A DNA stretch of 64,000 bases. Source: an uncultured Thermotogae bacterium (GTDB taxonomy: Bacteria; Bipolaricaulota; Bipolaricaulia; UBA7950; UBA9294). The notes below the pieces were generated by a model that saw nothing but the letters and a program-made list of their open reading frames with translations, had not been told where the DNA came from and did no database searches. The stretch is taken from the NCBI GenBank assembly GCA_964570515.1, contig CAZMYM010000004.1:15937-79936 (forward strand), written 5' to 3'. The position numbers were made by a program, and so were the translations under genes. Positions 6,919 through 61,708 of this stretch are shown one piece after another (positions within the stretch are counted from its first letter, which is position 1; each line of letters begins with the position of its first letter).

Positions 6919-8037
6919 TTAGTCGGTGCGAAGCCCCTTTGCAGGTGATGTGGAGCGGTTCCGCGATTCGAGGTCCAACAGGTATCGCTTGCGCCACAGC
7001 CCCCCGCTGTAGCCGGTCAGCTTGCCGTCGGCGCCGCCGACCCGATGGCAGGGGACGATGATGGCCACTCTGTTGTCGCCGTTGGCGCGGGCGACGGCGC
7101 GAACGGCGGTCGGCCGCCCGATCGCCTTGGCCTGGTCCTGATACGATCGCGTTTCGCCGTACGGGATGCTGCAGAGCGCGTCCCACACGGTCTCCTGGAA
7201 TGGAGTCCCGGGAAGAACCAGCGGCAGATCGAATGTATGCCGAGCCCCATCGAAGTACTCGGCGAGTTGCGTTTCGAGAGCACCAAGGTGGCGATTCGTG
7301 CCAGGGAGCACTTCCGCATTCAAGCAGTTCCTCAGGCGAGCGATCTGGGTTTCGAGCATCCGGCGATCGGCGAACTCGAGGAGACAGACGCCGACCTCGG
7401 TGGCGGCCGCCAGCATCGGCCCGAGCGGCGACGGGATCCGCGGGACAGTGACAAGGCCTTTGCCGTGCGATCCGCTCGGCGGAGCCCCGGTCGCCTTCTT
7501 GAAGGCGTCGACAAACCCGCTCAGGGAGCCGTGCCCCGTACCGAACGCGGCCGAGGCGACGTCGTCTCCGTTGCGGATCCGACCAAAGGCGGCGCCGAGA
7601 CGAAGGAGCCGGCAGTAGGCATGAAATGTGATCCCATGATGCTGTTTGAACCACCGCCGGACGCGACTCGGTTCGATGCCTCGATTGCGCAAATCCTGAT
7701 CCCTCCAACGCGCGGCGGGATCCTGTTGGACCGCCTACAGGAGTTCTTCGATCCAGTTCGGAGCGCTGCCGAGCGGCTCCATCGGCCGGCAGACCTTGCA
7801 CGGTCTGTACCCATGAGTAAGGGCTTCTTGCGTGGTCGAGAAGAACTCAACGTTCCCTCGCTTGGGTGTTCGCGCAGTGCAGCCGGGTCGACAGAAGATG
7901 CCCGTCGTCCGAACCCCGACCACGAAGATCCCCTCGAACCGCGAGTCCCGCTCGAGGAGTGCGGTATACATGGCCTCTTCGCTCGGGAGACTGCGTCCGT
8001 CCGTGTCGAGACGATCTCGCGTCGCTTGTGTGCTCAT
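6919..8037 (-). pseudogene. ada: Ada-like bifunctional regulator / O6-methylguanine-DNA methyltransferase interrupted by an in-frame TAG (7735-7737)
   Basis: N-terminal Ada Zn-binding domain (FCRPGCTARTPKRGNVEFF...CKVCRP). Then ELL-TAG-AVQQDPAARWRDQDLRNRGIEPSRVRRWFKQHHGITFHAY (AraC HTH) continues in the same frame. C-terminal MGMT with the PCHRV active site. Confidence 0.7.
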
Positions 8038-8218
8038 GACCCGACACTGTAGGACGCGCGCGTAGTCGCCACAACCGGAGACTGAACATGGATGTCGACT
8101 CGGGGTTCGGTGATCTGCAGTCGGTATCGCGTCCGGTCGACGGAGGCGAAGGCCCGACGCGTCAGGAGCAGCGTCAGAAGAGCTGACGCGATATGCGCGA
8201 GCTGCGCGAGATCACGTG

Positions 8219-8911
8219 TCAGAGCGCGAGGAAACGCCGCAGGATCGTGTCGGCCGCGTCGTTTCGCGGCGGCGCGTTGCGGAGCGCGTGGAAGATGTGG
8301 CGTACCGGCTTGCGGCCGAGCAACAACGTGAAGCGGAGGAAGATCCTCGCCTTCCAAGACGACATCTCCGGGTGCGCCTGGATCCCCCAAACGGGCTTGT
8401 TCCCGTAGCGAAGGACGTGCGTGTCACAGTGCCTCGTTCGCCCGAGCTTCCGCCAAGGAGCAGGTGGATCGACGGCCTCGTCGAAGTGATAGACGAACGT
8501 GTTCCACGGGTTCGGGAGCCCGTCGAACAGCGGATCGGATTCGACCATCTCGATCTCGCCCCAGCCGACCTCCGGCGGGTCCGACTGTCGCAGATATTCA
8601 GAACCGGACAGCGCGTAGACGAGCATCTGGTGCCCGAAGCAGGACCCGAGGACGGGAATCCCACGAGCCACGGCGTCGCGGATCAGCTCCTTCTCTGCCC
8701 CGAACCACGGGTTCGGCTCGAGAATCGAACCCTCCGACCCGGTGAGGATGATATGGGTGAAGCCATCGAGCGGCGGAATCGCCGCCCGGGACGGAATGTT
8801 CACCGTCCGCGTGTCGATCCCCTTCAGGTGCGCCTTCCAATGCCAGCATGGCTTGAACACGAATCGATGCACCGCGTTGTCGACGATGAGGACGAAGGCA
8901 TGCTCCGGCAT
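8219..8911 (-). CDS. Class I glutamine amidotransferase-like protein (paralog 1)
   Basis: GSCFGHQML nucleophile-elbow motif and GIQAHPE. The start is uncertain (8911 by alignment with the paralog at 15874..16572, alternative ATG at 8977). Confidence 0.7.
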   Translation of the reverse strand: MPEHAFVLIVDNAVHRFVFKPCWHWKAHLKGIDTRTVNIPSRAAIPPLDGFTHIILTGSEGSILEPNPWFGAEKELIRDAVARGIPVLGSCFGHQMLVYALSGSEYLRQSDPPEVGWGEIEMVESDPLFDGLPNPWNTFVYHFDEAVDPPAPWRKLGRTRHCDTHVLRYGNKPVWGIQAHPEMSSWKARIFLRFTLLLGRKPVRHIFHALRNAPPRNDAADTILRRFLAL

Positions 8912-31839: not shown

Positions 31840-32584
31840 ATGAGGGAGTTCATCAAGAAGCGGCCGGTGCTGAATTTCTCGGTGTTCATCGTCGTGTGGA
31901 CCTGGATTCTCATGGCGGTGATCATCGCGCTCGTTCCGGTCGATCCGGTAGCAGGACCGCAATTCGTGCATGTTGCCCTTGTCTTCTTTGTGGCGAGTGC
32001 GTCCTATCTGGTACGCGGCTTCCTTCCTGTTCATCCCCGCCGTCATCGCGGCGAGCGTCCTGATCCGAGGGCTCTTCGGCGCGGATCTCACGGGACTCGA
32101 TGTGCTGGGATAACTAGCCTTTGCGGTCCCAATCGCCCTGCTCGCGGCTGTCATGGAGGAGTTCGGCTGGCGCGGGTTCATGCTGCCGAGGTTGTTGGAG
32201 CGAGGTAGTGCGCTCAAGGCCGCCCTCATTGTCGGCGTAGTGTGGGCGCTCTGGCACGCACCGATCAACTACATGGGCCTCTCCAAGTACGGTTGGCAGG
32301 CGTTGCCGATCCTCCTTGTCCTGGCGATCCTACCGATCGCACAGACGGTGCCGATGGTGTGGATCCACAACAGCGCGAAGCAGAGCATGCTGATGATGGT
32401 TCTGACGCACGTCAGCATCACCGGCGGGTTCATCATCTTCGCGTTGCCCAATGCCAACGCGGCGGCCGAGCTGAGGGGAGATCTGTTCACCGCGGGGACG
32501 CTCGCCCTCGCGGCGATCGTCATCGTTGCCGTATTCGGTGCGAAGCGACTGACCCGCTCGATGAAGCCGAGAGCAGGCGCATGA
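31840..32584 (+). pseudogene. CPBP-family intramembrane glutamic endopeptidase (CAAX protease/Abi-like), disrupted
   Basis: Good start (GAAGGAGGAGAGG-ATG, MREFIKKRPVLNFSVFIVVWTWILMAVII). The frame is lost near 32005 and there is an in-frame TAA at 32111-32113. The downstream part carries EEFGWRGF and WALWHAPINY motifs. Confidence 0.65.
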
Positions 32585-33615
32585 AGGCCGTCGCTTTCGA
32601 ACGATACGGATCTCCGAACGTGCTGTCGCTCCGGGACATTGACACTCCGGCCCCGCGGGATGACGAGATTCTCGTTAAGGTCCGCGCAGCCGCGGTGAAT
32701 CCGCAGGACTGGCATTGCCTGCGGGGCAGGCCGCTCTTGGCCCGGCTGTTGGTTGGCGGGTTGCTGAAGCCGGGGCATCAGGTCCTGGGCTCGGATATTG
32801 CAGGGACCGTTGAGGCGGTCGGGGCGACCGTCGCGCGGTTCGCACCGGGTGATGACGTGTTCGCGATGAGTTTCAAGCACGGGGCGTTCGCCGAGTACGC
32901 CGTCCTCCCGGCTTCCGCGGTGGTCGCTGTGAAGCCGTCGGCGCTTCCCTTCGAAGAGGCGGCCGCTGTGCCGATGGCGGGCGTGATGGCGTTGATGGGG
33001 CTTCGGGATCAGGCGAAGCTCAAGCCGGGGCAGAAAGTGCTGATCAATGGCGCATCCGGTGGGATCGGAACGTTCGCGGTGCAGATTGCGGTGGCCCTCG
33101 GAGCCGAGGTGACCGGCGTGTGCAGCACGCGGAATCTGGATTTGGTGCGCTCACTCGGCGCGGATCGGGTGATCGACTACACGAAGACGGACTTCACCCG
33201 CGAGGACACGCGTTACGACCTGATCTTCGACGTGGTGGCGAAACGCACATTCGGCGAGTGTCGGCGTGCGCTGACCCGCAACGGGATCTACGTCAGCACG
33301 GCCTTCTCTCTGGGCCTTTTGCTTCGGTCGTTGTGGGTCGCGCTGACGAGCGGCAGGAGGCTGAAACCGATGCTCCAGCGCCCCACCCAGGCCGACCTGG
33401 CCGTCGTAAGAGAACTCATCGAAGCCGGTGCCGTCCGTGCAGTCATCGATCGACGCTACCCGCTGGCTGAGGTGCCGGAGGCCATCTTGTATGTCGAGAA
33501 GGGCCACGCGCGGGGGAAGGTTGTCATCGAGGTGGCGTCCGGAAGCGAGGGGCAGCATGAAGATCGTCGCGGTGATGGGCAGCTACCGCTGGACAGGGCA
33601 AACGGCTCCCTTTGA
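32581..33615 (+). CDS. Zinc-type alcohol dehydrogenase / NADPH:quinone oxidoreductase family (MDR) protein
   Basis: MKAVAFERYGSPNVLSL..., INGASGGIGTFAVQIA Rossmann motif, GHARGKVVIEV. The 3' end reads through into a 25-codon fragment of an FMN-reductase gene start (33557-33634, other frame). Confidence 0.8.
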   Translation: MKAVAFERYGSPNVLSLRDIDTPAPRDDEILVKVRAAAVNPQDWHCLRGRPLLARLLVGGLLKPGHQVLGSDIAGTVEAVGATVARFAPGDDVFAMSFKHGAFAEYAVLPASAVVAVKPSALPFEEAAAVPMAGVMALMGLRDQAKLKPGQKVLINGASGGIGTFAVQIAVALGAEVTGVCSTRNLDLVRSLGADRVIDYTKTDFTREDTRYDLIFDVVAKRTFGECRRALTRNGIYVSTAFSLGLLLRSLWVALTSGRRLKPMLQRPTQADLAVVRELIEAGAVRAVIDRRYPLAEVPEAILYVEKGHARGKVVIEVASGSEGQHEDRRGDGQLPLDRANGSL

Positions 33616-52136: not shown

Positions 52137-54077
52137 CTATCCAGTGTGCAGAATCGCGTTGTATGCCATCAAGGCGGCGTCAGCCCTTGCGCATGAAACC
52201 CACAGCTCAGGAATCACGCTGCAGAGATATCGCAAGTGCGAGTGGAACCCAATGCCAGCTTCGCGCTCCAAGTCACCCAGCGCCAATTCCGTCAGCCATT
52301 CACCTGCGAAATCTCGCCACTCCTCCATTCCGGCGCGGCTGGCAGAGGCAACGAGACATATCCGCACAGCCTCTTCTGTGGACAGCGAGTATTGAGCGTC
52401 TCGCATGTATCTCCGAACGAGAACTCGCAACTCGTTTGCGAGAGTGTGGCTCCTACCAACGACAGCAACCGTGGCCAATCCGCTCAATATGGTCAGAAGC
52501 TGCGTCCTGTCTTCCACGTTTGCGAGCCGATAGCTGCCGAGCTTCAAGGCCCTTGCCGCCAAGTCTGCGTGGTCCGCACCAACGCGGAAGATCAAAGCGG
52601 AATTCACAAGAGCAATGAAAGACGATGGTCCCACCACCTCAGCACTGAGTTGCGTCTCAATCGCCTCGACGATCGCGGCAGGCAGCATGTTCCGTGAGTT
52701 CTCGGTGCCTTCCAGTGGTCCGGGCATGTAGAGAGTGAAGGAATCATTGAGCGACTGGATCACCCCCGACTCAGCCCCAAGAATGATGTCATATAGGCGT
52801 TCTCCCCTGATGTTCTGCTCGTCGTTGACTGCCGCGATCATGATTCGGCCAAGGAATCCCGCCCTCATTTGCGAAGGCGTCGCAAGGCCAGGCCTCCAGT
52901 GTGGTTCCAGACGCAGATCAGCGACCGATTGCAGGTAGAACTGTTCCCCGCGGTTCCTGAACGCCCAGTCATGAAACGCATCGACATCAATAGCTGAGTT
53001 CACAAGCTGGCGGTGTATCAATGCAGCCTGTGACAAGGCTGTGAGTCTTCTGAAGAAGGGAGGCTCTGCTGGCATCAGCCGGGCTCTTGACAACTCCCCA
53101 TCTACGAGCATGAACAACGCCGAGAGAAGCTTGAAATCGCTTGCCTGGCCGTCAACGTCATCGTCGCGAATTCGCTCAATCAGCCGGACTAGAGCCGATT
53201 CAATCTCAGGTATCGACGGCAGAATGCGCAAACCAACTTCAATTGCTCCGATCTGGGAGATCCTATCTCCTTGCTTGTCCAAGAAGACGAAAGCGCGAGC
53301 AATGTCCTCTCGAGGCAACCGGTCCACATCAATCTCAGCTGTCATCGAAGGATGCGATGCCAGATAGAGGAAACACAAGAGCCCATCATACGGTCGCCAT
53401 GCGAGCAGCCGATCCAGGAACTCTCTGCCGCCACGGGCTGCATACTCATGAATGGAGGAACTCCCGTCATATGCGCCCACAAGCCTTTCGTAGTAACGGC
53501 GTGACAGGGGCACCAGAGAATGGATACTGCTTTGTCCGTCTAGCATCTCACGGCGTATGGATCTTGCTCTTTCGATCGGTGTGTCGCGCAGGTCATTGTG
53601 AAACGCATCGACCTCGTCATCGTCGAGAGGGCGTTCTGCAAGAACATCGCGCCAGGCAGCTCGATCACCGCTTGGCAGATTGACGTCAGAAGCAGACTCA
53701 TCAAGTGAACGCAGACGCGCGTCGGTATCCGGGGAAAGCACGGCGTAGCCTGGCAGGTTGAGTCGCTGCTCGCCACGTGAGAGCCTGATAGCAGGCAGCT
53801 GTCCGCCCTCGCTGACGTCCTCGACCTTCCACTTCTCGTCGTTCGTGTCAGTCACTTCCTTGACCAATGCACCTGCAAGAATCTCGCGAATGGCTTTGAA
53901 GAGCTCGAAACGCGGAATGGAGATACCAGATTCGCCGAAGTGAAGGATGGCCTCCGCCTCAATACCGTACTCATCCCGGAAATCCGGCTCCTCAAGCAAG
54001 GCGTTGCGTATCATTGGAGGCACGAGTCCCAGAGCCGCGTATGCTAGTGCTGATCTGACATCCGGACTATTGGTCAC
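52137..54077 (-). CDS. 646-aa all-helical protein, no recognisable domain (island gene 3)
   Basis: GTG start overlaps the upstream stop (GTGA at 54074-54077) with GGAGAG 5 nt upstream. AT-richer codon usage than the flanks. Confidence 0.7.
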   Translation of the reverse strand: MTNSPDVRSALAYAALGLVPPMIRNALLEEPDFRDEYGIEAEAILHFGESGISIPRFELFKAIREILAGALVKEVTDTNDEKWKVEDVSEGGQLPAIRLSRGEQRLNLPGYAVLSPDTDARLRSLDESASDVNLPSGDRAAWRDVLAERPLDDDEVDAFHNDLRDTPIERARSIRREMLDGQSSIHSLVPLSRRYYERLVGAYDGSSSIHEYAARGGREFLDRLLAWRPYDGLLCFLYLASHPSMTAEIDVDRLPREDIARAFVFLDKQGDRISQIGAIEVGLRILPSIPEIESALVRLIERIRDDDVDGQASDFKLLSALFMLVDGELSRARLMPAEPPFFRRLTALSQAALIHRQLVNSAIDVDAFHDWAFRNRGEQFYLQSVADLRLEPHWRPGLATPSQMRAGFLGRIMIAAVNDEQNIRGERLYDIILGAESGVIQSLNDSFTLYMPGPLEGTENSRNMLPAAIVEAIETQLSAEVVGPSSFIALVNSALIFRVGADHADLAARALKLGSYRLANVEDRTQLLTILSGLATVAVVGRSHTLANELRVLVRRYMRDAQYSLSTEEAVRICLVASASRAGMEEWRDFAGEWLTELALGDLEREAGIGFHSHLRYLCSVIPELWVSCARADAALMAYNAILHTG

Positions 54078-57000
54078 GGTGCTCTCCGTTCGTCTAGATG
54101 CGAGTCAGCAATCTCCGCGATCTTTCTTCTGTGCCAATCCATGATCAAGTCGAACAGATCGGGATACTGCTCCTTGATGGGAGCCAATACCCTGACCTCA
54201 ATCCAGCTCCAGTATTCGTCGTTGACATGCTGGGGTGTCTCCGGCAAAGGTGCAAGCATCATCAAGATCAGCACGCCTCTTCCTGCACGGACAACACTGT
54301 CTCCACTCTCACTGCCGAAGCGGTGAGCCCACCCTCGAACATCAACTTGATCCAGGATCCAGTCTGATCGCGCTCGCACGCAAGAGGGATCGCCATCAGG
54401 CTTCCACAGGTTCCTCAGCGTTCGGATGAGCACCCTGAGCGTCGTATCCAGCCAGAATGACTCCTCCGGAAGCTGAAGCCATCTGGTCATTCGAGCATGC
54501 AGCATGTTCTCCCGAATAGCTTTCAGTTCAGCTATCTCAATCACCTTGGCATCCTTGACTTCCGAAGCGCTGAGATGGCCTGCGAGTTCGTCGCCATCTA
54601 TGGATACGAAGAAGTATCCGCTGCGGCGAACGACAGTCCTGTATCCCAATCGCTCTTCAGGGGATATGGAACCAGCGGCAACCAGTGCATCTAGCAGATC
54701 CAAAGTTGAATAGACCCGCGCTTGCGACTCACCATGATTGATGCTGGCATGCTTATTGACAAACCTGTCGTCCACTATGATTGCGTCACAATCACTTGCC
54801 AACGCAATGGCACGAGCAGTGGGATGCTCGAATAGCGATTGCTCGTCAGGCGCACGCGCGCTCTGACGTTTTGCCACCGTGACCTTCCCCGACTCTATCC
54901 GTGACTTGATGGCAAGACGGATGCGCTCTATGGCGTTGTTGACCTTGTCGGAGAGAGTCTCATAAGCGATGAGCATGTTGCTCTCCAGCACCGACCTGTG
55001 CGAGACGATCAATCTGAAACCCGCGGCCTTGAGTCTGTCCAGCATTCCAAGATTAAGGAAATATGCTAGAGCCAGGTCATCCAGATACAGGATTGCCCCA
55101 TCGGCAATGTCTGGCTCATGTGGCCAAGGTTTCTCGTGAAGTTGCAGAAAGGCATGCGCCTTCTTGTACTCCTCGGCGGCCAGGTGCCCCATGTGCTGTA
55201 ACTTGTCCACAATGGACTGGCAACTACTCACGATAGCCGCGTGAGTTCCCAGATCTGCTTCCTCCTCCATGAGAGAACCCAGCCGATGCACTGGAGACGA
55301 TCGAACAACGATACGCTGAATCTCTTCATCGTCTCTTGCCCTACCTGCCTCTGCAATGAGTAGCGCTAGCTCATCGCCAATCTGAGCAGATAGATCACTG
55401 TCCGGTTCCGAGCTTGGGGAGAGTCCCTGCAGAACATCTGTCGCCAGTAGATTGCGAATCCGATGCGCGTCTCTAATCCTACTGGGCTGATGATATGCAG
55501 CCTTCTGCTTCTCCTGAAAAAGCCACGCGAGAGTGGAATGCGGCACATAGACCGTGTCAAATGCATCAAACGCCTTGTCAAGCAGATTCAAGTGGCTCAA
55601 GGTGAGCAATGCAGTTGCATCGATTCCAACCGCTTTGTCCGTCTGAAGTACTGCCGGATGCCGCTTGCCGCTATACGCTGGAATAGCACCTCTTCGACGC
55701 GGATCGTTCTCCGAGAGGTTCGCTAGGGCTGGGAGAAGCATTAGATCGAGAAGCGACTTGTTGAGGAAGTCAGCAGCAATGAACATCGGGATGTCGCCAC
55801 GGCTCAACTGCTCCCACACATCAGACTCTCGACGATCCCATTCAGGCTTCCGGTTTAGTACATCCCTCAGGGTCAGTTTGCGGATTGGCCCGCCATCCCC
55901 GGAGAGCTCAGCGGCGGCGCGAAGCCACGCGGTGACTTCCGCATCGTCCTCCCAACCGGCGCTTGCGGCCAGGAAGTAGGCGGACGCGAGGATCCCGGCA
56001 TCATCACTGCCCCTATCCGCTGCCGCGAACAGCAACTCCTTAGCGTTTGGTGAATTCAGTTGGAAAGCCAGCTGAGCAGCGTGGATCAACTCCTGTGCGT
56101 TCCTCTCATCTTTTCCCGCGCACTCGCTCGCGACAAACGCAGAAAGAGAATTCCAATCACCCAGGAAGATTCCAAGATTTACCTGCAATGCTCGATAATT
56201 CGGATCATCCTGCTTATCACTGAGCTTCGATAACTCGGAGCGAGCCTCCAGAAGCTTCCCCTCGTAGAACAAGGACCAGCAATAGAGCATCTGTAGGTTC
56301 CTTGATTGAACGAGCAGCGTCGTGTTGGTCTCCAGAAACTCGACAAGTTGCCCGTCCTTCTTGGTCTTGCCTAGAGCGATCGCGAATCGCTCAGCGTCGC
56401 GCACCGAGCGAGTTCTTTCGAATAGCATCTCTCCGTAATGGCAAACGCTGTCCCACTTGCTTTCGGACTCAAGCTCGTCAACCAAGGAAGCCAGATCGCT
56501 TAGCGAGTTGGTTTCCTTGAACTGCGCCCGTCTGGCATCAACCTGATCAGTTCCCTCTGCCTCGGCAATCAGTATCCGAAGGCGCTTCTCGTCCGCTTCT
56601 GAAACACCCTCTCCCGACAGAAGCTGCAGACACTCAGTCGCTCTTTGAGGCATCCCGGCTTTCGCGAACCTCTCGATCTGGAGGATTCGCATCGCCCTTG
56701 TGTCAATATGTTTGGAGAGCTGGTCGTAGTGGCGGGCTACGAAGTACGCCACATCCTCTGGAGTTTTCTGAGTGAAGGCGAGGGCAAAGCGGGCAATCGC
56801 AGCGTCTTGTGTGATCTCGCCGTGGAGAGCGATATGCTGCTCGATCTCCTGCTCGACTGCCGCAAGATTCAGTTTGACGCCAAATTGCAGGCCAAGAGGG
56901 ACAAGGCGAAGAGCGGACTTGGGATTCTGGAGCTTAGCCTCAAGTCGTTGCCTTCCTTCGTGTGATTCCTCGGGATCTCTCAGCTCAAGCCAAAGCGCGT

Positions 57001-57871
57001 ACTCATCATCCACTGATGCTGCGCGAGGGCAATCAAGTTGCCGTGCAGCGTCTGCAGCGCTAATGAAGTGGCGATGTGCAGTTTGGCGGCTTTCCATCGC
57101 AGTCGCATCCGAGGCAAGAGGGAAGTTCGCTGCGTCAAATGGCAACTGGTTGAGCACTCGAGTGCGGAACTCTGTCGGCACAACGACTATGAGGTGAGTT
57201 ATTGCCATCATGTGATGCAGGGCTGGCGATTCGTCCACGTCCTGATCACTTAGCACACTGAGAGCGTTCTTCGCGGCATCCCATTGGGCGAGTTGAAGCT
57301 GCTGCTGCAGGAGATAGAACTTGCCGTCAGGGCCCAGGTCCGAGACTCCAAGGCCAGCCGTTTTCAGCCATTCAAGGGCTCCATCTGCGCCTTCATGATG
57401 CGCAACAATCATTAGGGCCGCTGACTTTGAGGCGGGAGAGTCAATACTCGCAAGACTGCTCAGCGCAGCGCTCTTGTCACCTCTCCGCGAAGCAATGAAG
57501 GCATCTGCGATGTCGATCTCCGGCAGGTGTGCTAACGTCTTTGCGAGCCCAACGTACTCTTCTGCTTTCTCCAGTTCTGCTGTTGGCGATAGAAGACGGG
57601 CGCACCAAGCCAATGCCCGGCCTCGTACAGCTCCAGTTCCCCCAGAAAGATCTCCGTCAACGAGTTTCTCGCCAAGCGTCAATGAAAAGGTAGATCTGTC
57701 GAACTCCAGGAAGAATCTCGACTTGCGCAGAATGTCGACGTCATCCTCGGTCCTCTGGTCAACAAGCTCTGTTGGGAACTCCAGAGAGGAATAGTTGATG
57801 TCTCCGCCGATCTGTACGTTAAATGAACCGTCACCCGAAGAGATCGTTTGCTTATTCCTCTTTGGCATCAT
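54074..57871 (-). CDS. 1265-aa protein: N-terminal SG..S.NVQ.GGDI motif, about 700 aa of TPR-like helical repeats, C-terminal region with PIN-like acidic motifs (island gene 2)
   Basis: Start MMPKRNKQTISSGDGSFNVQIGGDINY. Later AVGIDATALLTLSHLN and ALASDCDAIIVDDRFVNK. Uninterrupted 3.8-kb ORF in an AT-richer island. Confidence 0.7.
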   Translation of the reverse strand: MMPKRNKQTISSGDGSFNVQIGGDINYSSLEFPTELVDQRTEDDVDILRKSRFFLEFDRSTFSLTLGEKLVDGDLSGGTGAVRGRALAWCARLLSPTAELEKAEEYVGLAKTLAHLPEIDIADAFIASRRGDKSAALSSLASIDSPASKSAALMIVAHHEGADGALEWLKTAGLGVSDLGPDGKFYLLQQQLQLAQWDAAKNALSVLSDQDVDESPALHHMMAITHLIVVVPTEFRTRVLNQLPFDAANFPLASDATAMESRQTAHRHFISAADAARQLDCPRAASVDDEYALWLELRDPEESHEGRQRLEAKLQNPKSALRLVPLGLQFGVKLNLAAVEQEIEQHIALHGEITQDAAIARFALAFTQKTPEDVAYFVARHYDQLSKHIDTRAMRILQIERFAKAGMPQRATECLQLLSGEGVSEADEKRLRILIAEAEGTDQVDARRAQFKETNSLSDLASLVDELESESKWDSVCHYGEMLFERTRSVRDAERFAIALGKTKKDGQLVEFLETNTTLLVQSRNLQMLYCWSLFYEGKLLEARSELSKLSDKQDDPNYRALQVNLGIFLGDWNSLSAFVASECAGKDERNAQELIHAAQLAFQLNSPNAKELLFAAADRGSDDAGILASAYFLAASAGWEDDAEVTAWLRAAAELSGDGGPIRKLTLRDVLNRKPEWDRRESDVWEQLSRGDIPMFIAADFLNKSLLDLMLLPALANLSENDPRRRGAIPAYSGKRHPAVLQTDKAVGIDATALLTLSHLNLLDKAFDAFDTVYVPHSTLAWLFQEKQKAAYHQPSRIRDAHRIRNLLATDVLQGLSPSSEPDSDLSAQIGDELALLIAEAGRARDDEEIQRIVVRSSPVHRLGSLMEEEADLGTHAAIVSSCQSIVDKLQHMGHLAAEEYKKAHAFLQLHEKPWPHEPDIADGAILYLDDLALAYFLNLGMLDRLKAAGFRLIVSHRSVLESNMLIAYETLSDKVNNAIERIRLAIKSRIESGKVTVAKRQSARAPDEQSLFEHPTARAIALASDCDAIIVDDRFVNKHASINHGESQARVYSTLDLLDALVAAGSISPEERLGYRTVVRRSGYFFVSIDGDELAGHLSASEVKDAKVIEIAELKAIRENMLHARMTRWLQLPEESFWLDTTLRVLIRTLRNLWKPDGDPSCVRARSDWILDQVDVRGWAHRFGSESGDSVVRAGRGVLILMMLAPLPETPQHVNDEYWSWIEVRVLAPIKEQYPDLFDLIMDWHRRKIAEIADSHLDERRAP

Positions 57872-58070
57872 TCCGTGCGGTTTTGCTCTTGATGTGCATG
57901 TCGTGACCGACTTGGACGTTCGTCGAACTACTGCCAGATCGGATCTTCTGAGATGGACCCGCCTTCTTGCGCCGACAGACCACACGCCCTAGCCCCGCCA
58001 GCAACACCAGGCCAGCTCCGGAGAACAGCCACTCCTTATTGTCCAGAATCCACTGCCCAAATCTGGCCAT
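57852..58070 (-). CDS. 72-aa single-pass membrane protein (island gene 1)
   Basis: GAGGAG RBS. MARFGQWILDNKEWLFSGAGLVLLAGLGRVVCRRKK, then SQKIRSGSSSTNVQVGHDMHI. Overlaps the next ORF by 20 nt. Confidence 0.5.
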   Translation of the reverse strand: MARFGQWILDNKEWLFSGAGLVLLAGLGRVVCRRKKAGPSQKIRSGSSSTNVQVGHDMHIKSKTARNDAKEE

Positions 58071-58316
58071 TCCTGGTCTCCTCTCTCATTCTCGTTAGAA
58101 GCGTCTTCTTCGAGCCTACATCCCTAGCCTTGCATGGACAAGCCCAAGACGTGCACCGGCTGACTGCAACGGCCCAAGGGCAGGTAGCTGAGTGGAATCT
58201 TGCCCGCAGCCCCTCCGACTTGCGTTCGCGCTGTGGTCGAGGATTCCCCACGCATCCAGGAGTGCGGGGACAGAGCTACGTACCTGGATGTGTGCCAGCC
58301 TCCTGCTGACAGCAAG

Positions 58317-58371: not shown

Positions 58372-58655
58372 TCACTCGCTCACGGTGATCACGACCTTGC
58401 CTCGAACGTGTCCCGCTTCCAGATACCACATAGCCTCGGCGATCTCGTTCAGTGGGTAGGTCTTGTCGATGGCCGGCGTGATCTTGCCGGCCGCGATGAG
58501 CTCTCTTTGGAAGCCCAGATCCTGGTTGGGCTTGTCATTGACCGGGGCCAGTGTTTGGCCCACGAACGGAGAGAGTAGGACACACTTGAGCTGCTGGATC
58601 ATCGGTCCGAGCCAACGGCCGCTGCGCCCCCGGGGGTGCCGTGGAACCCTTTAGG
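58372..58655 (-). pseudogene. 3' fragment of an MDR quinone-oxidoreductase gene, also frameshifted
   Basis: LLSPFVGQTLAPVNDKPNQDLGFQRELIAAGKITPAIDKTYPL...GKVVITVSE is about 75% identical by eye to the C-terminus of 59521..60498. Upstream, ALTPKGFHGTPGG lies in another frame. Homology stops at a dispersed-repeat copy. Confidence 0.7.
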
Positions 58656-58896: not shown

Positions 58897-59154
58897 GTGC
58901 CGACCGTGAAAATCCGCACGAACCGCCAAGTGACCGTACCGAAGGTCATTTTCGATGACCTCGGCCTCAAGGAAGGCGACTACGTTGACGTAAGCCTCCA
59001 GGGAAGCGACATCGTGATCCGTCCAAAGCGTCTCGTGGACTTCGATGACACGCTCAGCCCCGAAGAAGAGCAGCTCGTCGAAAGGGGATTCCGCGAGCTA
59101 CGCCAGGGTAAGTCCGTTGCCTGGAGCGCGCTGAAGGATGAACTGGGCGTGTAA
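58897..59154 (+). CDS. AbrB/MazE/SpoVT-family antitoxin
   Basis: TVKIRTNRQVTVPKVIFDDLGLKEGDYVDVSLQGSDIVIRP is a swapped-hairpin SpoVT-AbrB motif. Confidence 0.8.
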   Translation: MPTVKIRTNRQVTVPKVIFDDLGLKEGDYVDVSLQGSDIVIRPKRLVDFDDTLSPEEEQLVERGFRELRQGKSVAWSALKDELGV

Positions 59155-59404
59155 TCTCTCGCGGCAAGCCGCGAAGCAGTTGCGCTCTTTGCCGCGGGAC
59201 AGGCTCGGACAAGTCGCCCGGGCGATCGATGAGATCGGGGAGGATCCGACGCTCGGCGATGTGCGTCCGATCAAGAGCGGCCGGTTCAAAGGCGCTGTTC
59301 GCAAGCGCGTCGGCCCATACCGGATCGTCTACTCGATCGACCCTGATGCCCGAGAGGTTGACGTCGCTGCCATCCTCACTCGCGGCGACACAACGTACCA
59401 CTAA
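59138..59404 (+). CDS. RelE/ParE-family toxin
   Basis: 17-nt overlap with the antitoxin. KQLRSLP...GKRVGPYRIVYSIDPDAREVDVAAILTRGDTTY fits this family. Confidence 0.8.
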   Translation: MNWACNLSRQAAKQLRSLPRDRLGQVARAIDEIGEDPTLGDVRPIKSGRFKGAVRKRVGPYRIVYSIDPDAREVDVAAILTRGDTTYH

Positions 59405-59520: not shown

Positions 59521-60498
59521 TCACTCGCCCACGCTGACGACAACCTTCCCTCGAACGCGGCCGGTTTCCAGATAGCGCATTGCCCGGGCGGTCTCGGTCA
59601 GCGGGTAGGTCTTGTCGATGACGGGTGTGACCTTGCCAGCTTCGATGAGCTCTCTCAAGAAGTCCAGATCCTGGTTGGGCTTGTCGTTCACCGGGGCCAA
59701 TCTCTGGCTGACGAACGGCGAGAGCAGGGTGGCTTTGAACTGTAGCGCCATCGGGCCGAACCATTCGCCTTTTTCCCCTCCGGTGGTGCCGTAGAAGCCG
59801 TTGGGCGTCAGTGCGCGCCGGCATTCGGCCAGCGTGTGATTGCCCACGAGGTCTAGAATCATGTCGTAGCGCTCCTTGCTGCGAGTAGTGAAATCCTCCT
59901 GCGCGTAGTCGATGACGTGATCGGCGCCGAGTGAGCGCACCAGTTCGATGTTCTTGGCGCTGCACACGCCGGTGACCTCAGCGCCCAGCGCTTTGGCGAT
60001 CTGCACGGCGAACGTGCCGACTCCGCCTGACGCCCCATTGATCAACACCTTCTGCCCCGGCTTGGCCTGTCCTGCGTCACGCAAGCCGATGAGGGCGGTT
60101 TGCGCGGCCATCGGCACTGCCGCCGCCTGCTCAAACGTCAGGTTGGCGGGCCTCGCCCTCAGCTTCTTCTCAGGCACGCTGATGTATTCGGCACAGGCTC
60201 CAACGCCGACTTCTGCGTAGACCTCATCGCCGGGACGGAATCGCGTCACGTGCCCCCCGACGGACTCAACCTGACCGGCCATGTCGCTACCGAGGATGGT
60301 CGCTCGCTTGGGTTTCCGCAGGCCCGTCAGCAAGCGCATGGGATAGGGGAGGCCTCTCAGGAAATGCCAGTCATACGGATTGAGGCCTGCCGCGCGCACG
60401 CGAATCAGAACCTCGTTGTGGTTTGGAAGCGGCTTGTCAACGTCCCTGAGTTCCAGAACATCCGGAGAACCGTACCTGGTGTAGACGATCGCTTTCAT
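59521..60498 (-). CDS. MDR-family NADPH:quinone oxidoreductase
   Basis: MKAIVYTRYGSPDVLEL, INGASGGVGTFAVQIA, GRVRGKVVVSV. Confidence 0.85.
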   Translation of the reverse strand: MKAIVYTRYGSPDVLELRDVDKPLPNHNEVLIRVRAAGLNPYDWHFLRGLPYPMRLLTGLRKPKRATILGSDMAGQVESVGGHVTRFRPGDEVYAEVGVGACAEYISVPEKKLRARPANLTFEQAAAVPMAAQTALIGLRDAGQAKPGQKVLINGASGGVGTFAVQIAKALGAEVTGVCSAKNIELVRSLGADHVIDYAQEDFTTRSKERYDMILDLVGNHTLAECRRALTPNGFYGTTGGEKGEWFGPMALQFKATLLSPFVSQRLAPVNDKPNQDLDFLRELIEAGKVTPVIDKTYPLTETARAMRYLETGRVRGKVVVSVGE

Positions 60499-60508
60499 GC
60501 TGTACTCC

Positions 60509-61471
60509 CTATCCGCCGTCGATCACGGTGATGACGACTTTCCCTTGGGCGTGGCCTTCATCCAGATATCCGAATGCCTCAGGGGTCTCGCTGAATGGGT
60601 ATGTGCGATCAATGACCGGCGTGACCTTGCCTGCTTCGATCAGCTCCCCCAGAAGAACCAGGTCCTCATGCTTCGGGACTGCGAGGAGCATGCTCCCCTG
60701 GCTGCGCAGGAACATTGACAATGCGAATGCCTTGATGACGTACCCCATGCCGGCATGGCCCGTATTGGGTTGGACCTTTCCTTGGGGAGTGAGCGCCCGC
60801 CGCAGATCGGAGAACGAGTGGTTCCCCACGTTGTCGAGGATGAGATCGTAGCGCCGCGGGCCCTTCGTGAAATCCTCCTGTGTGTAGTCGATGACATGGT
60901 CCGCGCCGATCGACCGCACCATCTCCACATTCCTCGTGCTGCAGACGCCGGTCACGTCTGCACCGAGCGACTTGGCGATCTGGACGGCGAACGTTCCTAC
61001 GCCTCCGGACGCACCGTTGATCAGAACCTGCTGGCCGGGCTGGACCTTGCCTGCATCGCGAAGCTCCACAAGGGCGGTGATTGCCGCAGTCGGGACGGCC
61101 GCCGCCTGCTCGAACGTCAGATTGGCTGGCTTGGTCGCGATCTTGCCTTCCGGAGCACGCACGTACTCGGCAAGCGTTCTGCTGTACGAACCGAATACCT
61201 CGTCACCCGGTCGAAAACCCGTCACGCTCTTGCCGACGGCCTCGACACACCCAGCCATGTCCCAGCCAGGCACGTGGTTCTTTGGTCTTGGAAAACCGAC
61301 GGACAGGCGGACCATCCAAGGTACGCCTCTCATCATGAATACGTCGCCGGCGTTGATGGCGGCCGCGTGCACGCGCACCAGGACGTCGTCATCCGTGACC
61401 GCCGGCTTGTCGATTTCTTTGAGTTCGAGGACTTCCGATCCACCGTATGCGCTCTGAACGATTGCCTTCAC
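60509..61471 (-). CDS. MDR-family NADPH:quinone oxidoreductase (tandem paralog)
   Basis: MKAIVQSAYGGSEVLEL, INGASGGVGTFAVQIA, GHAQGKVVITV. Confidence 0.85.
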   Translation of the reverse strand: MKAIVQSAYGGSEVLELKEIDKPAVTDDDVLVRVHAAAINAGDVFMMRGVPWMVRLSVGFPRPKNHVPGWDMAGCVEAVGKSVTGFRPGDEVFGSYSRTLAEYVRAPEGKIATKPANLTFEQAAAVPTAAITALVELRDAGKVQPGQQVLINGASGGVGTFAVQIAKSLGADVTGVCSTRNVEMVRSIGADHVIDYTQEDFTKGPRRYDLILDNVGNHSFSDLRRALTPQGKVQPNTGHAGMGYVIKAFALSMFLRSQGSMLLAVPKHEDLVLLGELIEAGKVTPVIDRTYPFSETPEAFGYLDEGHAQGKVVITVIDGG

Positions 61472-61472
61472 A

Positions 61473-61655
61473 TCATCCTCGCTTGCCTGAGATGAGCGAG
61501 GCGATCAGGAGCCCCGCGCCGATCCCGATCAGCAACGATGCGATGAATGCGAGAACCGACGCTTGAAGGAAGATGAAGCCGACGCCCAACCCGATCAGTG
61601 TCGTCCCTCCAATGGCCAGTCCACCCCGATCCGTTGCCCTGCGCTTCTCAGTCAC
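61473..61655 (-). CDS. 60-aa Gly-rich two-TM membrane protein
   Basis: GGLAIGGTTLIGLGVGFIFL...LLIGIGAGLLIASLI. Its stop lies 1 nt before the qor start. Confidence 0.45.
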   Translation of the reverse strand: MTEKRRATDRGGLAIGGTTLIGLGVGFIFLQASVLAFIASLLIGIGAGLLIASLISGKRG

Positions 61656-61708
61656 TCGAATGACCTCCCATGCGCTTGTTGCGGGATCCTTGTAGTCCTC
61701 TTCTTACC

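What the first reader, a model, noticed from the sequence alone, without database searches (positions are those of the whole stretch)
52137..58070. AT-richer island carrying a translationally coupled three-gene operon of unknown function (72-aa TM protein, 1265-aa helical-repeat protein, 646-aa orphan): candidate novel defence/conflict system
Three minus-strand ORFs are packed with overlaps: a 20-nt overlap at 57852-57871 and a GTGA overlap at 54074-54077. The first has a good RBS (GAGGAG). Hand counts of sample 60-nt lines give about 50-53% GC inside the island versus about 65-67% in the flanking qor genes, so the block looks horizontally acquired. It sits between a decayed hicBA module plus trmO on one side and a qor gene stump plus an intact abrB/relE pair on the other, which is the classic defence-island neighbourhood. 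Neither large protein has an ATPase, helicase, methylase or other obvious catalytic signature that I can read. The only hints are TPR-like repeats and two PIN-like acidic motifs. A membrane peptide, a giant repeat scaffold/sensor and an orphan partner do not match any named system I know.
Basis: partly seen in the sequence, partly recalled or inferred. Interest (0 to 1): 0.85.

Follow-up and report, generated by a model that had tools for sequence, protein, structure and literature searches.

The report
Defence operon with matched amyloid-like tags
This three-gene block is a horizontally acquired variant of a known bacterial anti-virus system (TPR-GreA/B-C-PIN), and its giant sensor protein and a tiny membrane protein carry the same 20-residue tag, which probably lets the sensor trigger the membrane protein to kill an infected cell.

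Summary
The three overlapping minus-strand genes, the RBS and a composition dip are real.

The proteins are not orphans. The 1265-aa protein hits Pfam HTH_upst_double_PIN (E 1.6e-25) and PIN-TPR-GreABC (E 2.8e-16). The 646-aa protein hits Permuted_GreAB-C (29.8 bits, cut-off 27). The block is therefore a split branch of the TPR-GreA/B-C-PIN (TGP) conflict systems (Kaur 2021). One TGP member, E. coli Bab/Agp, was shown in a 2024 preprint to give abortive infection through amyloid signalling.

The two large genes are adjacent or fused in almost every related locus I could check, across many phyla, often inside defence islands.

Residues 41-60 of the 72-aa protein and residues 8-27 of the 1265-aa protein both carry Q-x-I-x-S-G-x-x-S-x-N-V-Q-x-G-x-D. 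The motif is conserved and co-varies in all 22 genome loci of this class. It sits where relatives carry HNH, TIR or SMEK effector domains.

The same membrane-helix+motif module also pairs with LPO_1073/Vpar_1526 and Abi_alpha proteins, including in an E. coli P2-like element.

Verdict: a new variant of a known kind. The amyloid-like coupling is inferred, not shown.

The parts
57852..58070 (-). Gene 1: 72-aa single-pass membrane protein, the proposed abortive-infection effector
   Evidence: ORF. Homologs lie immediately upstream of the sensor gene in 22 of 22 distinct genome loci of the short-N-terminus class. The family has 1381 50%-identity cluster representatives at E<=1e-3.
57975..58031 (-). 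Predicted transmembrane helix, residues 14-32 (WLFSGAGLVLLAGLGRVVC), followed by RRKK (57963-57974)
   Evidence: Kyte-Doolittle 19-residue mean is 1.72 here and 1.5-2.25 in all family members. It is always followed by 2-4 K/R, which implies a cytoplasmic C-terminus. W14, F16 and G18 are invariant.
57891..57950 (-). Effector-side copy of the shared motif, residues 41-60 (QKIRSGSSSTNVQVGHDMHI)
   Evidence: Ungapped alignment to sensor residues 8-27 scores 52 (BLOSUM62). None of 20000 shuffles reaches this score (maximum 47). The motif is conserved in all family members.
58078..58083 (-). Ribosome-binding site GAGGAG, 7 nt upstream of the gene-1 ATG
   Evidence: Read directly from the sequence.
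54074..57871 (-). Gene 2: 1265-aa sensor/nuclease with an N-terminal motif, helical repeats, an HTH, a double PIN and a conserved C-terminal region
   Evidence: Pfam PF24407 (E 1.6e-25) and PF20698 (E 2.8e-16). The search found 819 homologs, and the 120 listed are 57-100% identical.
57791..57850 (-). Sensor-side copy of the shared motif, residues 8-27 (QTISSGDGSFNVQIGGDINY)
   Evidence: Q8, I10, S12, G13, S16, N18 and D24 are invariant in 15 short-class homologs. Nucleotide identity to the effector copy is 33/60 overall and only 7/20 at third codon positions, so the similarity is kept at protein level.
55892..57781 (-). Alpha-helical repeat (TPR-like) region, about residues 31-660
   Evidence: Only weak sequence support for TPR: TPR_19 at E 0.12 and PDB TPR protein 6deh at E 0.24. 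The region is conserved across the family. It was not modelled structurally.
55661..55870 (-). HTH domain, residues 668-737
   Evidence: Pfam PF24407 HTH_upst_double_PIN, 89.7 bits against a cut-off of 27.
54737..55639 (-). Double PIN nuclease region, about residues 745-1045 (best Pfam stretch 929-1042, coordinates 54746-55087)
   Evidence: Pfam PF20698, two stretches, 60.4 bits against a cut-off of 27.8. E787, E841, D873, E913, D931, D1034 and D1035 are conserved in at least 132 of 136 homologs.
52137..54077 (-). Gene 3: 646-aa partner with an N-terminal beta domain and a long alpha-solenoid
   Evidence: The search found 937 homologs. The 120 listed are 57-100% identical and 119 of them carry PF24388. 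The gene is immediately downstream of, or fused to, gene 2 in nearly all loci. AlphaFold2 model has pLDDT 86.9 and pTM 0.85.
53781..53933 (-). Permuted GreA/B-C-like domain, residues 49-99 (structural beta domain about 43-107)
   Evidence: Pfam PF24388, E 4.7e-7, 29.8 bits against a cut-off of 27. The model shows 6 strands plus 1 helix. Foldseek found no GreA match, so the structural test is inconclusive.
52146..53729 (-). Alpha-solenoid, residues 117-644, role unknown
   Evidence: AlphaFold2 model. Foldseek finds only generic TPR/HEAT/ARM repeats, best E 0.012.
57852..57871 (-). Overlap between gene 1 and gene 2 (17 nt if gene 2 starts at 57868)
   Evidence: ORF coordinates. In 13 of the 22 genome loci the sensor's motif begins 2 nt after the end of the small gene, the same spacing as in the window.
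54074..54077 (-). GTGA overlap between the gene 2 stop and the gene 3 start
   Evidence: ORF coordinates. The same 4-nt overlap occurs in L004, L005 and L064-L066. The junction is replaced by an in-frame fusion (about 1900-2070 aa) in many relatives.

Best explanation
The block is a horizontally acquired three-gene variant of the TPR-GreA/B-C-PIN (TGP) anti-invader systems.

Proposed roles:
- The 1265-aa protein (helical repeats, HTH, two PIN nuclease domains) and the 646-aa protein (permuted GreA/B-C-like domain plus alpha-solenoid) act as one sensor/nuclease unit. They are a single polypeptide in many relatives.
- By analogy with the TGP model, the GreA/B-C-like domain docks on RNA polymerase. 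The unit then detects or attacks transcription that a phage has hijacked, using the PIN domains.
- Most relatives carry a fused killing domain (HNH, TIR, SMEK and others) at the sensor's N-terminus. This version carries only a 20-residue motif there.
- The same motif sits on the cytoplasmic tail of the co-translated 72-aa single-pass membrane protein.
- I propose that activation, probably by oligomerisation, makes the sensor's motif adopt a cross-beta (amyloid-like) fold. That fold templates the motif on the small protein. The small protein's helices then cluster in the membrane and kill or arrest the infected cell (abortive infection).

Shown here: the domain content, the strict gene linkage and fusion, the shared co-varying motif, the variable effector slot, and the defence-island context.

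Inferred: RNA polymerase binding, PIN activity, the amyloid nature of the motif interaction, membrane damage, and anti-phage function.
For: Family membership:
- Pfam hits above curated cut-offs on both large proteins.
- PF24388 is on 119 of 120 listed partner homologs.

Linkage of genes 2 and 3:
- A partner homolog lies directly downstream of the sensor, or is fused to it, in nearly all of 59 loci.
- About 2000-aa fusion proteins carry PF24407, PF20698 and PF24388 together.

The N-terminus is an effector slot:
- Homologs carry HNH_2, TIR_2, SMEK_N, a DUF626/LmuA-like domain or unannotated modules upstream of the same core.

The shared motif:
- The window pair scores 52, and none of 20000 shuffles reaches that.
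- The motif is present in both proteins in 22 of 22 distinct genome loci. Cognate pairs are more alike than non-cognate ones (p=0.009).
- An independent metagenome set gives p=0.0016 for this class and p<2e-5 overall.
- Codon-position identities of 0.64/0.76/0.35 show selection on the protein rather than a DNA repeat.
- The motif pattern occurs nowhere else in any ORF of the window or of the 63 loci held at that point.

Generality of the principle:
- A second, different matched motif links a two-helix small protein to the 1291-aa sensor class in 3 of 3 loci.
- The same membrane-helix+motif module pairs with LPO_1073/Vpar_1526 proteins (37 loci) and with an Abi_alpha protein (1 locus).

Precedent:
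- In Bab/Agp, a TGP protein and a small membrane-targeting protein share an amyloid motif (N-terminal on the sensor, C-terminal on the effector). Beta-breaker mutations in either copy abolish T5 resistance.

Defence and mobility context:
-.
- The composition shift supports recent acquisition.
Against: - No experiment or structural prediction here shows that the motif forms amyloid. It has only two glycines and differs from what the preprint reports for BASS11.
- The GreA/B-C assignment rests on one Pfam hit just above threshold. Foldseek on the isolated domain model (pLDDT 75.6) found no GreA, GreB or Gfh1 match.
- TPR assignment is weak at sequence level.
- The sensor pair is unusually conserved for an immune gene: 57-85% identity across phyla in the listed hits, apart from the window's own sequence.
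- No relative was found on phage genomes or viral contigs.
- PADLOC does not list the large proteins.
- In some relatives (170-310 aa) the helix+motif unit is N-terminal to another domain. The motif is therefore not always a free C-terminal tail.
- The permutation tests do not fully correct for shared ancestry of the loci.
Confidence: 0.6

Rival explanations
1. It is the same TGP-type defence system, but the shared motif is an ordinary one-to-one docking element rather than a self-propagating amyloid. It could work by beta-strand pairing, or as a peptide bound in the groove of the helical repeats. In that case the small protein would be tethered, sequestered or released by the sensor.
For: - The motif directly precedes the helical-repeat region of the sensor, and TPR-like arrays commonly bind extended peptides (established knowledge).
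- Cognate co-variation fits any specific pairwise contact.
- In longer relatives the motif is internal, between the helix and another domain.
Against: - The architecture matches every known amyloid-signalling pair: the same short N/Q/S/G-rich motif on both partners, C-terminal on a small membrane protein, N-terminal on the sensor, encoded by adjacent genes.
- Some family members carry the motif twice in tandem (P0376), as in HET-s.
- A homotypic motif is not what a groove-ligand pair normally looks like.
Confidence: 0.2
2. The signal runs the other way. The 72-aa membrane protein is the sensor or anchor, detecting for example membrane perturbation at phage entry or lysis. It recruits or activates the cytoplasmic PIN nuclease complex, which is then the real effector.
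For: - The large protein has its own conserved nuclease residues.
- The helix+motif module serves several partner families (LPO_1073, Abi_alpha, this sensor). It could therefore be a common input device rather than a common output.
Against: - In homologs the position of the motif is taken by bona fide killing domains (HNH, TIR, SMEK), not by sensor domains.
- A 1421-aa class has hydrophobic helices fused in that same slot.
- In Bab/Agp the small protein executes death and the TGP protein controls it.
Confidence: 0.1
3. It is not an immune system. It could be an addiction or toxin-antitoxin-like module of mobile DNA, or an accessory RNA-surveillance or transcription factor with a housekeeping role.
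For: - The pair is very strongly conserved (57% identity or more across phyla).
- It sits next to toxin-antitoxin genes in the window.
- It is often on integrative islands or plasmids.
- There is no experimental evidence for defence in this branch.
Against: - Distribution is sporadic: 53 loci were found among the 185,579 species representatives scanned, although the scan relied on two peptide patterns.
- Relatives are embedded in R-M, BREX and other defence loci.
- The N-terminal modules are swappable effector domains typical of immune proteins.
- The parent family has a validated anti-phage member.
Confidence: 0.06

Closest known systems
TPR-GreA/B-C-PIN (TGP) conflict systems (Kaur, Iyer, Burroughs, Aravind, eLife 2021, PMC8195603)
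   Same: - A PIN domain of the TGP-specific Pfam family (PF20698).
- Helical repeats and a GreA/B-C-type domain.
- A constant core behind a highly variable N-terminal effector or adaptor.
- Sporadic distribution in defence contexts.
   Different: - In the part of the supplement I read, canonical TGPs are single proteins with the order TPR, GreAB-C, PIN.
- Here the GreA/B-C-like domain is circularly permuted according to the Pfam model. It lies after the PIN region on a separate (or C-terminally fused) 646-aa protein with a large alpha-solenoid.
- The core also has an extra HTH and two PIN domains.
- The core is highly conserved rather than 'rapidly evolving'.
Bab/Agp of E. coli ECOR25 (Ibarlosa et al., bioRxiv 10.1101/2024.11.07.622273)
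   Same: - A small membrane-targeting protein is encoded directly upstream of a TGP-type sensor.
- A short motif of about 20 residues is shared between the C-terminal part of the small protein and the N-terminus of the sensor.
- Abortive infection is the predicted outcome.
   Different: - Bab is 109 aa with an ~80-residue helical Bell-like ('Babybell') domain. The protein here is 72 aa with a single hydrophobic helix and no further domain.
- The motif here appears to differ from BASS11. The preprint reports four glycines, I87-G88-S89-V90 and N100 in Bab, and N12 in Agp. I could not compare directly because the BASS11 sequence is not in the accessible text.
- Agp is a one-protein TGP. Here the sensor is split into two proteins.
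Bell/NLR pairs with BASS1-10 motifs (Dyrka et al. 2020, bioRxiv 10.1101/2020.01.06.895854) and fungal HET-S/NWD2
   Same: - The matched-motif principle: effector C-terminus and receptor N-terminus, encoded by adjacent genes.
- Several unrelated motif families share the same architecture.
- Pair identity is about 40-60%.
   Different: - The receptor is not an NLR/STAND NTPase.
- The effector lacks a Bell/HeLo domain.
- The window's own pair has a V-Q-[VI]-G core that recalls the RHIM/BASS3 G-phi-Q-phi-G signature. The family consensus (N-V-[QI]-A-G-R-D) does not keep it.
PADLOC candidate system PDC-M43 (protein PDC-M43A)
   Same: The N-terminal ~50-60 positions of the PDC-M43A profile match the helix module of the 72-aa protein and its relatives (E 2.4e-5 to 2.8e-8).
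   Different: - True PDC-M43A proteins (for example L129, E 4e-49) are about 200 aa and have a different C-terminal domain.
- In these proteins the downstream gene's N-terminus shows no motif.

Membership tests
TGP (TPR-GreA/B-C-PIN) system | PIN domain of the TGP-specific type | tested here: met
   PF20698 at 60.4 bits against a cut-off of 27.8, in two stretches. Acidic residues D931, D1034 and D1035 are conserved in at least 132 of 136 homologs.
TGP (TPR-GreA/B-C-PIN) system | GreA/B C-terminal-type (RNA-polymerase-binding) domain | tested here: inconclusive
   PF24388 Permuted_GreAB-C scores 29.8 bits against a cut-off of 27 and is on 119 of 120 listed homologs. Foldseek of the isolated domain model found no GreA, GreB or Gfh1. 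A circular permutation would hinder that sequence-order-dependent search. The PDB profile search found nothing.
TGP (TPR-GreA/B-C-PIN) system | TPR repeat array | tested here: inconclusive
   Only TPR_19 at E 0.12 and PDB 6deh at E 0.24. Precomputed TPR_19 is listed on 2 of 120 homologs.
TGP (TPR-GreA/B-C-PIN) system | Variable N-terminal effector or effector-associated adaptor in front of a constant core | tested here: met
   HNH_2, TIR_2, SMEK_N, DUF626/LmuA-like, hydrophobic and unannotated N-terminal modules occur in homologs. The window carries the short-motif version.
TGP (TPR-GreA/B-C-PIN) system | All domains in one stand-alone polypeptide, in the order TPR, GreAB-C, PIN | tested here: not met
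   The domains are split over two overlapping genes, with the GreAB-C-like domain after the PIN region. They are fused in that same order in about 2000-aa relatives. This makes it a distinct branch rather than a canonical member.
Amyloid-signalling pair (BASS-type, as in Bab/Agp) | Same short motif at the effector C-terminus and the receptor N-terminus, encoded by adjacent genes | tested here: met
   The window pair is 10/20 identical with score 52, and none of 20000 shuffles reaches that. The motif is present in 22 of 22 genome loci and in all 19 pairs of this class compared in the metagenome set.
Amyloid-signalling pair (BASS-type, as in Bab/Agp) | Co-evolution of the two motif copies | tested here: met
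   Permutation tests give p=0.009, p=0.0016 and p<2e-5. Shared ancestry of the loci is not fully controlled.
Amyloid-signalling pair (BASS-type, as in Bab/Agp) | Motif forms cross-beta fibrils and templates its partner (prion-like) | not testable with these tools
   This needs peptide fibrillation, ThT/Congo red binding, ssNMR and foci assays. No multimer structure prediction was available.
Amyloid-signalling pair (BASS-type, as in Bab/Agp) | Motif belongs to the named family BASS11 | not testable with these tools
   The BASS11 sequence or logo appears only in figures, and no supplement is held as text. The residue positions reported in the text do not fit the register of this motif.
Amyloid-signalling pair (BASS-type, as in Bab/Agp) | Effector has a Bell/HeLo-like helical bundle | tested here: not met
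   The small protein is 72 aa with one hydrophobic helix and no Pfam domain. It is too short for the ~80-residue Babybell domain.

The most novel reading that the evidence does not exclude
The 72-aa protein may represent a large, undescribed family of minimal 'membrane helix + amyloid-like tag' death effectors.

- The family has at least 1381 clusters at 50% identity.
- Its consensus is NKEW[LI]FSGxG (helix), then K/R, then Q-x-I-x-S-G-x-x-S-x-N-[VI]-Q-x-G-x-D.
- At least three unrelated partner families are wired to it through a matching N-terminal tag: the split TGP sensors, the uncharacterised LPO_1073/Vpar_1526 proteins (including a pair in an E. coli P2-like element), and Abi_alpha.

If the tag is a true templating amyloid, this would be a new bacterial amyloid-signalling motif family. 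Amyloid-controlled abortive infection would then be far more widespread and modular than the single Bab/Agp example suggests.
Probability: 0.4. Interest if true: 0.78.

Novelty: new variant of a known kind. Interest (0 to 1): 0.62.

Why it matters
- Amyloid signalling in bacterial immunity currently rests on one experimentally studied pair, Bab/Agp.
- This locus shows the same logic in a different branch of the family, with a different tag and a far simpler effector: one membrane helix and a 20-residue tail.
- The same effector module is shared by other partner families of unknown function, LPO_1073/Vpar_1526 and Abi_alpha. That gives these families a testable functional context.
- It also offers a very small, tractable model for how cross-beta templating could be converted into membrane damage.
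- The strong conservation of the sensor pair across phyla suggests it guards a conserved host machine, presumably RNA polymerase, rather than recognising variable phage proteins.
- Cultured carriers exist: Salinisphaera sp. PC39, Synechococcus sp. ATX 2A4, Nitrosomonas sp. ANs5, an Agrobacterium fabrum plasmid, and E. coli strains carrying the LPO_1073 pair.

Tried and rejected
Structure and sequence searches with no useful result:
- Foldseek of the full 646-aa model against the PDB found only generic alpha-solenoids, best E 0.012.
- Foldseek of the isolated N-terminal domain found nothing significant and no GreA.
- Profile searches of both large families against PDB sequences found nothing.
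- A local search for a greA gene to build a comparison profile found none in the window or the loci.

Mobility and boundaries:
- tblastn against 50,697 phage genomes and a scan of IMG/VR viral contigs found no relative of the sensor.
- The promoter/terminator consensus scan found no more sites than shuffled sequence gives, and none upstream of gene 1.
- A search for att-like direct repeats flanking the island found only short chance matches.

Source organism:
- It could not be determined. The identical sequence occurs only on metagenome contigs, and the cluster look-up returned no names.
- The window has no tRNA gene and no Rfam match.

Comparisons I could not complete:
- The BASS11 sequence is not in the accessible text and no supplement is held.
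- A literature search for the permuted-GreAB-C / double-PIN branch and for LPO_1073 in a defence context found nothing.

Ideas rejected:
- The two motif copies are not a recent DNA duplication. Third-codon-position identity is only 0.35.
- The JGI name 'LPXTG-motif cell wall-anchored protein', given to a 93%-identical homolog of the small protein (P0241), is not a real sortase signal. The window protein's own TIGR01167 hit sits exactly at the cut-off and is explained by a hydrophobic helix plus a basic tail.

Full report
**1. Observation**

The three minus-strand ORFs exist as described: 57852-58070 (72 aa), 54074-57871 (1265 aa) and 52137-54077 (646 aa). Public gene calls on identical metagenome contigs start the middle gene at the second of two ATGs, 57868.

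Gene 1 overlaps gene 2 by 17-20 nt. Gene 2 overlaps gene 3 by GTGA. GAGGAG lies 7 nt upstream of the first ATG.

It is 55.4% GC, against 62.0 +/- 1.2% for 463 non-overlapping windows of the same length (minimum 59.2%). GC3 is 0.59-0.66, against 0.71-0.78 in the flanking genes.

- a MazE/AbrB-type antitoxin with a ParE/RelE toxin;
- the last 85 codons of a qor paralog;
- three intact qor genes;
- TrmO_N;
- a sub-threshold HicB-like ORF.

I found no att-like repeats, no convincing promoter or terminator, and no tRNA gene.

**2. What the proteins are**

The proteins are not orphans.
- The 1265-aa protein hits Pfam PF24407 HTH_upst_double_PIN (residues 668-737, E 1.6e-25) and PF20698 'PIN domain associated with the TPR-GreAB-C-PIN system' (two stretches, best 929-1042, E 2.8e-16).
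- The 646-aa protein hits PF24388 Permuted_GreAB-C (residues 49-99, 29.8 bits against a cut-off of 27).

PADLOC and NCBIfam do not recognise the large proteins.

The TPR-GreA/B-C-PIN (TGP) architecture was defined by Kaur et al. 2021 (PMC8195603). It is a constant core behind a variable N-terminal effector. The authors proposed that it docks on RNA polymerase through the GreA/B-C domain, cuts transcripts with the PIN domain, and unleashes the N-terminal effector as a back-up.

One TGP system, Bab/Agp of E. coli ECOR25, has been shown to give abortive infection against T5. In that system a motif named BASS11 lies at the C-terminus of the 109-aa membrane-targeting Bab and at the N-terminus of the TGP protein Agp. 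It forms amyloid. Beta-breaker mutations in either copy abolish defence, as do mutations in the GreA/B-C domain (bioRxiv 10.1101/2024.11.07.622273).

**3. Relatives and gene linkage**

The sensor search found 819 homologs, and the 120 listed are 57-100% identical over the core. The partner search found 937 homologs. The 120 listed are 57-100% identical, and 119 of them carry PF24388.

A pattern scan of one genome per species found 53 loci. They come from very different lineages: Paenibacillus, Trueperaceae, Latescibacterota, Nitrosomonas, Synechococcus, Salinisphaera, Desulfobacterales, Verrucomicrobia, and one contig binned as Thorarchaeota.

In nearly all loci with enough sequence, the 646-aa homolog is directly downstream with the same 4-nt overlap, or is fused in frame into a protein of about 1900-2070 aa. 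The two large genes therefore form one functional unit.

Acidic residues expected of active PIN domains are conserved in at least 132 of 136 homologs: E787, E841, D873, E913, D931, D1034 and D1035.

**4. Structure**

An AlphaFold2 model of the 646-aa protein (pLDDT 86.9, pTM 0.85) shows a small beta-rich domain with one helix (about residues 43-107), followed by a 530-residue alpha-solenoid.
- Foldseek finds only generic helical repeats for the whole model.
- Foldseek finds nothing significant for the isolated N-terminal domain.
- PDB sequence profiles find nothing.

The GreA/B-C assignment therefore rests on the Pfam profile alone. A circular permutation would hamper Foldseek, so I rate this feature inconclusive. 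The TPR character of sensor residues 31-660 is also only weakly supported by sequence.

**5.

Residues 41-60 of the 72-aa protein (QKIRSGSSSTNVQVGHDMHI) align without gaps to residues 8-27 of the sensor (QTISSGDGSFNVQIGGDINY). The score is 52, and none of 20000 shuffles reaches it (maximum 47).

Sensor homologs fall into N-terminal classes. Most carry a fused HNH domain. Others carry TIR, SMEK, a DUF626/LmuA-like domain, hydrophobic segments or unannotated modules. About 14 of the 120 listed have only a short N-terminus with the conserved pattern Q-x-I-x-S-G-D-x-S-x-N-[VIL]-[QI]-x-x-x-D.

In all 22 distinct genome loci of that short class, and only there, a 68-112-aa ORF lies immediately upstream. 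Gene callers often miss it. Each of these ORFs has one hydrophobic helix (Kyte-Doolittle mean 1.5-2.25), then 2-4 basic residues, then the same motif.

The evidence that this is a selected, specific pairing:
- Mean identity between the two copies is 11.4/20.
- Cognate pairs are more alike than non-cognate pairs (permutation p=0.009).
- The two coding segments are 55% identical in DNA. Third codon positions are near random (0.35), against 0.64 and 0.76 at positions 1 and 2. The similarity is therefore maintained at protein level.
- The pattern occurs in no other ORF of the window or of the 63 loci held at that point.

The motif occupies the effector slot of the family, and the small protein is the obvious candidate for an effector supplied in trans.

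**6. Generality**

(a) A second matched motif. A different sensor class (1291-1292 aa) has a different N-terminal motif, QSIIAR[DN]I.DSTIIQ. Its upstream gene encodes a 105-121-aa protein with two hydrophobic helices and a C-terminal GQ[FY]IRTRNVKNS[TN]IIQI tail. This held in 3 of 3 loci examined.

(b) A large module family. A profile of the small protein, searched against 1.84 billion cluster representatives, finds 1381 members at E<=1e-3. Most are 56-90 aa with the same layout. Some are longer, with an extra C-terminal domain or tandem copies.

(c) Other partner families. I fetched 80 metagenome loci using the helix pattern. Of the 70 with a downstream ORF:
- 21 have this TGP-type sensor;
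- 37 have a 283-364-aa LPO_1073/Vpar_1526 family protein (NCBIfam NF045477, E 1e-68 to 1e-90, no Pfam or PADLOC hit), whose N-terminus carries the same motif just before the NF045477 domain;
- one has an Abi_alpha protein with the motif.

Cognate co-variation is again significant: p=0.0016 for the sensor class, p<2e-5 for the LPO_1073 class, and p<2e-5 overall.

(d) An E. coli example. An E. coli P2-like element carries a two-helix small protein plus an LPO_1073 pair with matching motifs. The pair lies between the replication endonuclease/DinI genes and the portal gene, next to genes that PADLOC lists as Hp1-Hp3. That region is a known defence hotspot of P2-like phages. This last point is my own knowledge and was not checked here. 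The pair is present in 6 of 5426 complete E. coli genomes.

**7. Context**

Relatives of the window's sensor pair occur:
- between hsdS/hsdM and hsdR of type I R-M operons;
- beside RloB, DUF1156 and DUF499;
- beside BrxL;
- on a P4-like integrase island in Thiobacillus;
- on a conjugative Agrobacterium fabrum plasmid, next to an integrase, VapBC and HsdR.

I found none on phage genomes or viral contigs.

**8. Mechanism**

See the best explanation. The shown steps are domain content, linkage and fusion, the matched co-varying motif, the effector-slot logic, and the context. The inferred steps are RNA polymerase docking, PIN cleavage, oligomerisation-driven cross-beta nucleation, templating of the small protein, and membrane failure.

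The main rival keeps the defence role but treats the motif as an ordinary docking element. A second rival reverses the direction of the signal. A third denies an immune role.

**9. Comparison and novelty**

The locus is a distinct branch of TGP: split, with a permuted GreAB-C-like domain, an extra HTH and a double PIN. Pfam models exist for this branch. I found no description of it in the searchable literature.

It works like Bab/Agp but fails two membership features. It has no Bell-like domain, and its motif seems different from BASS11. I could not test the second point directly.

I rate it a new variant of a known kind. The broader helix+motif module shared with LPO_1073 and Abi_alpha proteins is the most novel element. 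It is a lead rather than a demonstrated amyloid system.

Noticed in passing
L064:5675-5995 and 6001-6240; L065:2679-2996; L066:2478-2843: A second matched-motif class. The 1291-1292-aa sensor homologs carry QSIIAR[DN]I.DSTIIQ near their N-terminus. The upstream 105-121-aa protein has two hydrophobic helices and ends in GQ[FY]IRTRNVKNS[TN]IIQI[RK]KDKE (8-9 of 16 identical).
   Followed up: partly
L087, L091, L100, L111 and 33 other loci of L067-L146 (e.g. L111:6995-7198 and 7185-8231): The same membrane-helix+motif small protein pairs with LPO_1073/Vpar_1526 family proteins (NCBIfam NF045477, function unknown, no Pfam or PADLOC hit). The N-terminus of each carries the matching motif immediately before the NF045477 domain.
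   Followed up: partly
L126:387-614 and 601-1389: A helix+motif small protein lies upstream of a 262-aa Abi_alpha protein (PF14337, E 3e-24; PADLOC PDC-S47). Its N-terminus reads QSQKASEGAAQIQAGGNVNI, which makes it a third partner family.
   Followed up: no
L147:3746-4858 (E. coli plasmid NZ_CP148400.1; also chromosome NZ_CP028732.1:1683554-1684666): An E. coli P2-like element carries an 81-aa two-helix protein ending in SQSVGDNSTAVQARGDIKI, followed by an LPO_1073 protein starting MFSDKQKQQIGNNSYAIQAGNNVNV. The pair lies between the replication endonuclease/DinI genes and the portal gene, next to PADLOC Hp1-Hp3 genes. It is present in 6 of 5426 complete E. coli genomes.
   Followed up: partly
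P0257, P0275, P0322, P0376 and P0281/P0299/P0324/P0392/P0399: Some family members have the helix+motif unit duplicated in tandem, or two motif copies in a row. Others (170-310 aa) have it N-terminal to further domains, including a recurrent ~100-residue C-terminal domain (…FIREFFVLP…LDVLEE.GF…).
   Followed up: no
L060:2901-19778 and L061:1173-19911: HNH- and TIR-headed versions of the sensor pair sit inside type I R-M operons, between hsdS/hsdM and hsdR. A conserved 148-aa gene (PADLOC PDC-M50A) and an AAA_14/DUF4143 gene (PDC-S01) lie alongside them.
   Followed up: no
P0033, P0036 (L062:8001-12266), P0112, P0116, P0119, P0120: A 1420-aa sensor class has an N-terminal ~190-residue module with long hydrophobic, glycine-rich segments (…AQMLFYGSALLAIASIGGATLPGILGTLAATVGINVL…). 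This may be a membrane-active effector fused in cis in the same slot as the motif.
   Followed up: no
window 58375-58629, 58897-59404, 59521-62725 and 32581-33543: The window holds a qor paralog array: three tandem intact copies, a fourth at 32.6 kb, and a C-terminal stump. The stump lies between the MazE/ParE pair and the operon, so the toxin-antitoxin insertion may be what removed the first 240 codons of that qor copy, rather than the defence operon.
   Followed up: partly
window 57852-58070: JGI annotates a 93%-identical homolog of the 72-aa protein (P0241) as 'LPXTG-motif cell wall-anchored protein'. The window protein itself hits TIGR01167 exactly at its cut-off (15.9 bits). This looks like a misannotation caused by a hydrophobic helix followed by basic residues. 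NCBI names HNH-headed sensor homologs simply 'HNH endonuclease'.
   Followed up: yes
L007 (JABCTJ010000080.1, 12-kb contig binned as Candidatus Thorarchaeota): A sensor pair 62% identical to the window's lies on a contig assigned to an Asgard archaeon MAG. This is either inter-domain transfer or a binning error.
   Followed up: no
L063:5206-11711 (Agrobacterium fabrum pAtN33_94, NZ_CP125096.1): A distant (36% identical) sensor pair lies on a conjugative plasmid of a cultured strain. Its 265-residue N-terminal module matches PADLOC DUF626_VIII (E 2e-26). The pair is flanked by an integrase, VapBC and an HsdR-like gene.
   Followed up: partly
window 1-64000: The whole 64-kb window has no tRNA gene and no Rfam family at gathering threshold. 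The identical sequence is known only from metagenome contigs (ENA ERZ27315834, JGI 3300025698), and the source organism could not be named.
   Followed up: partly
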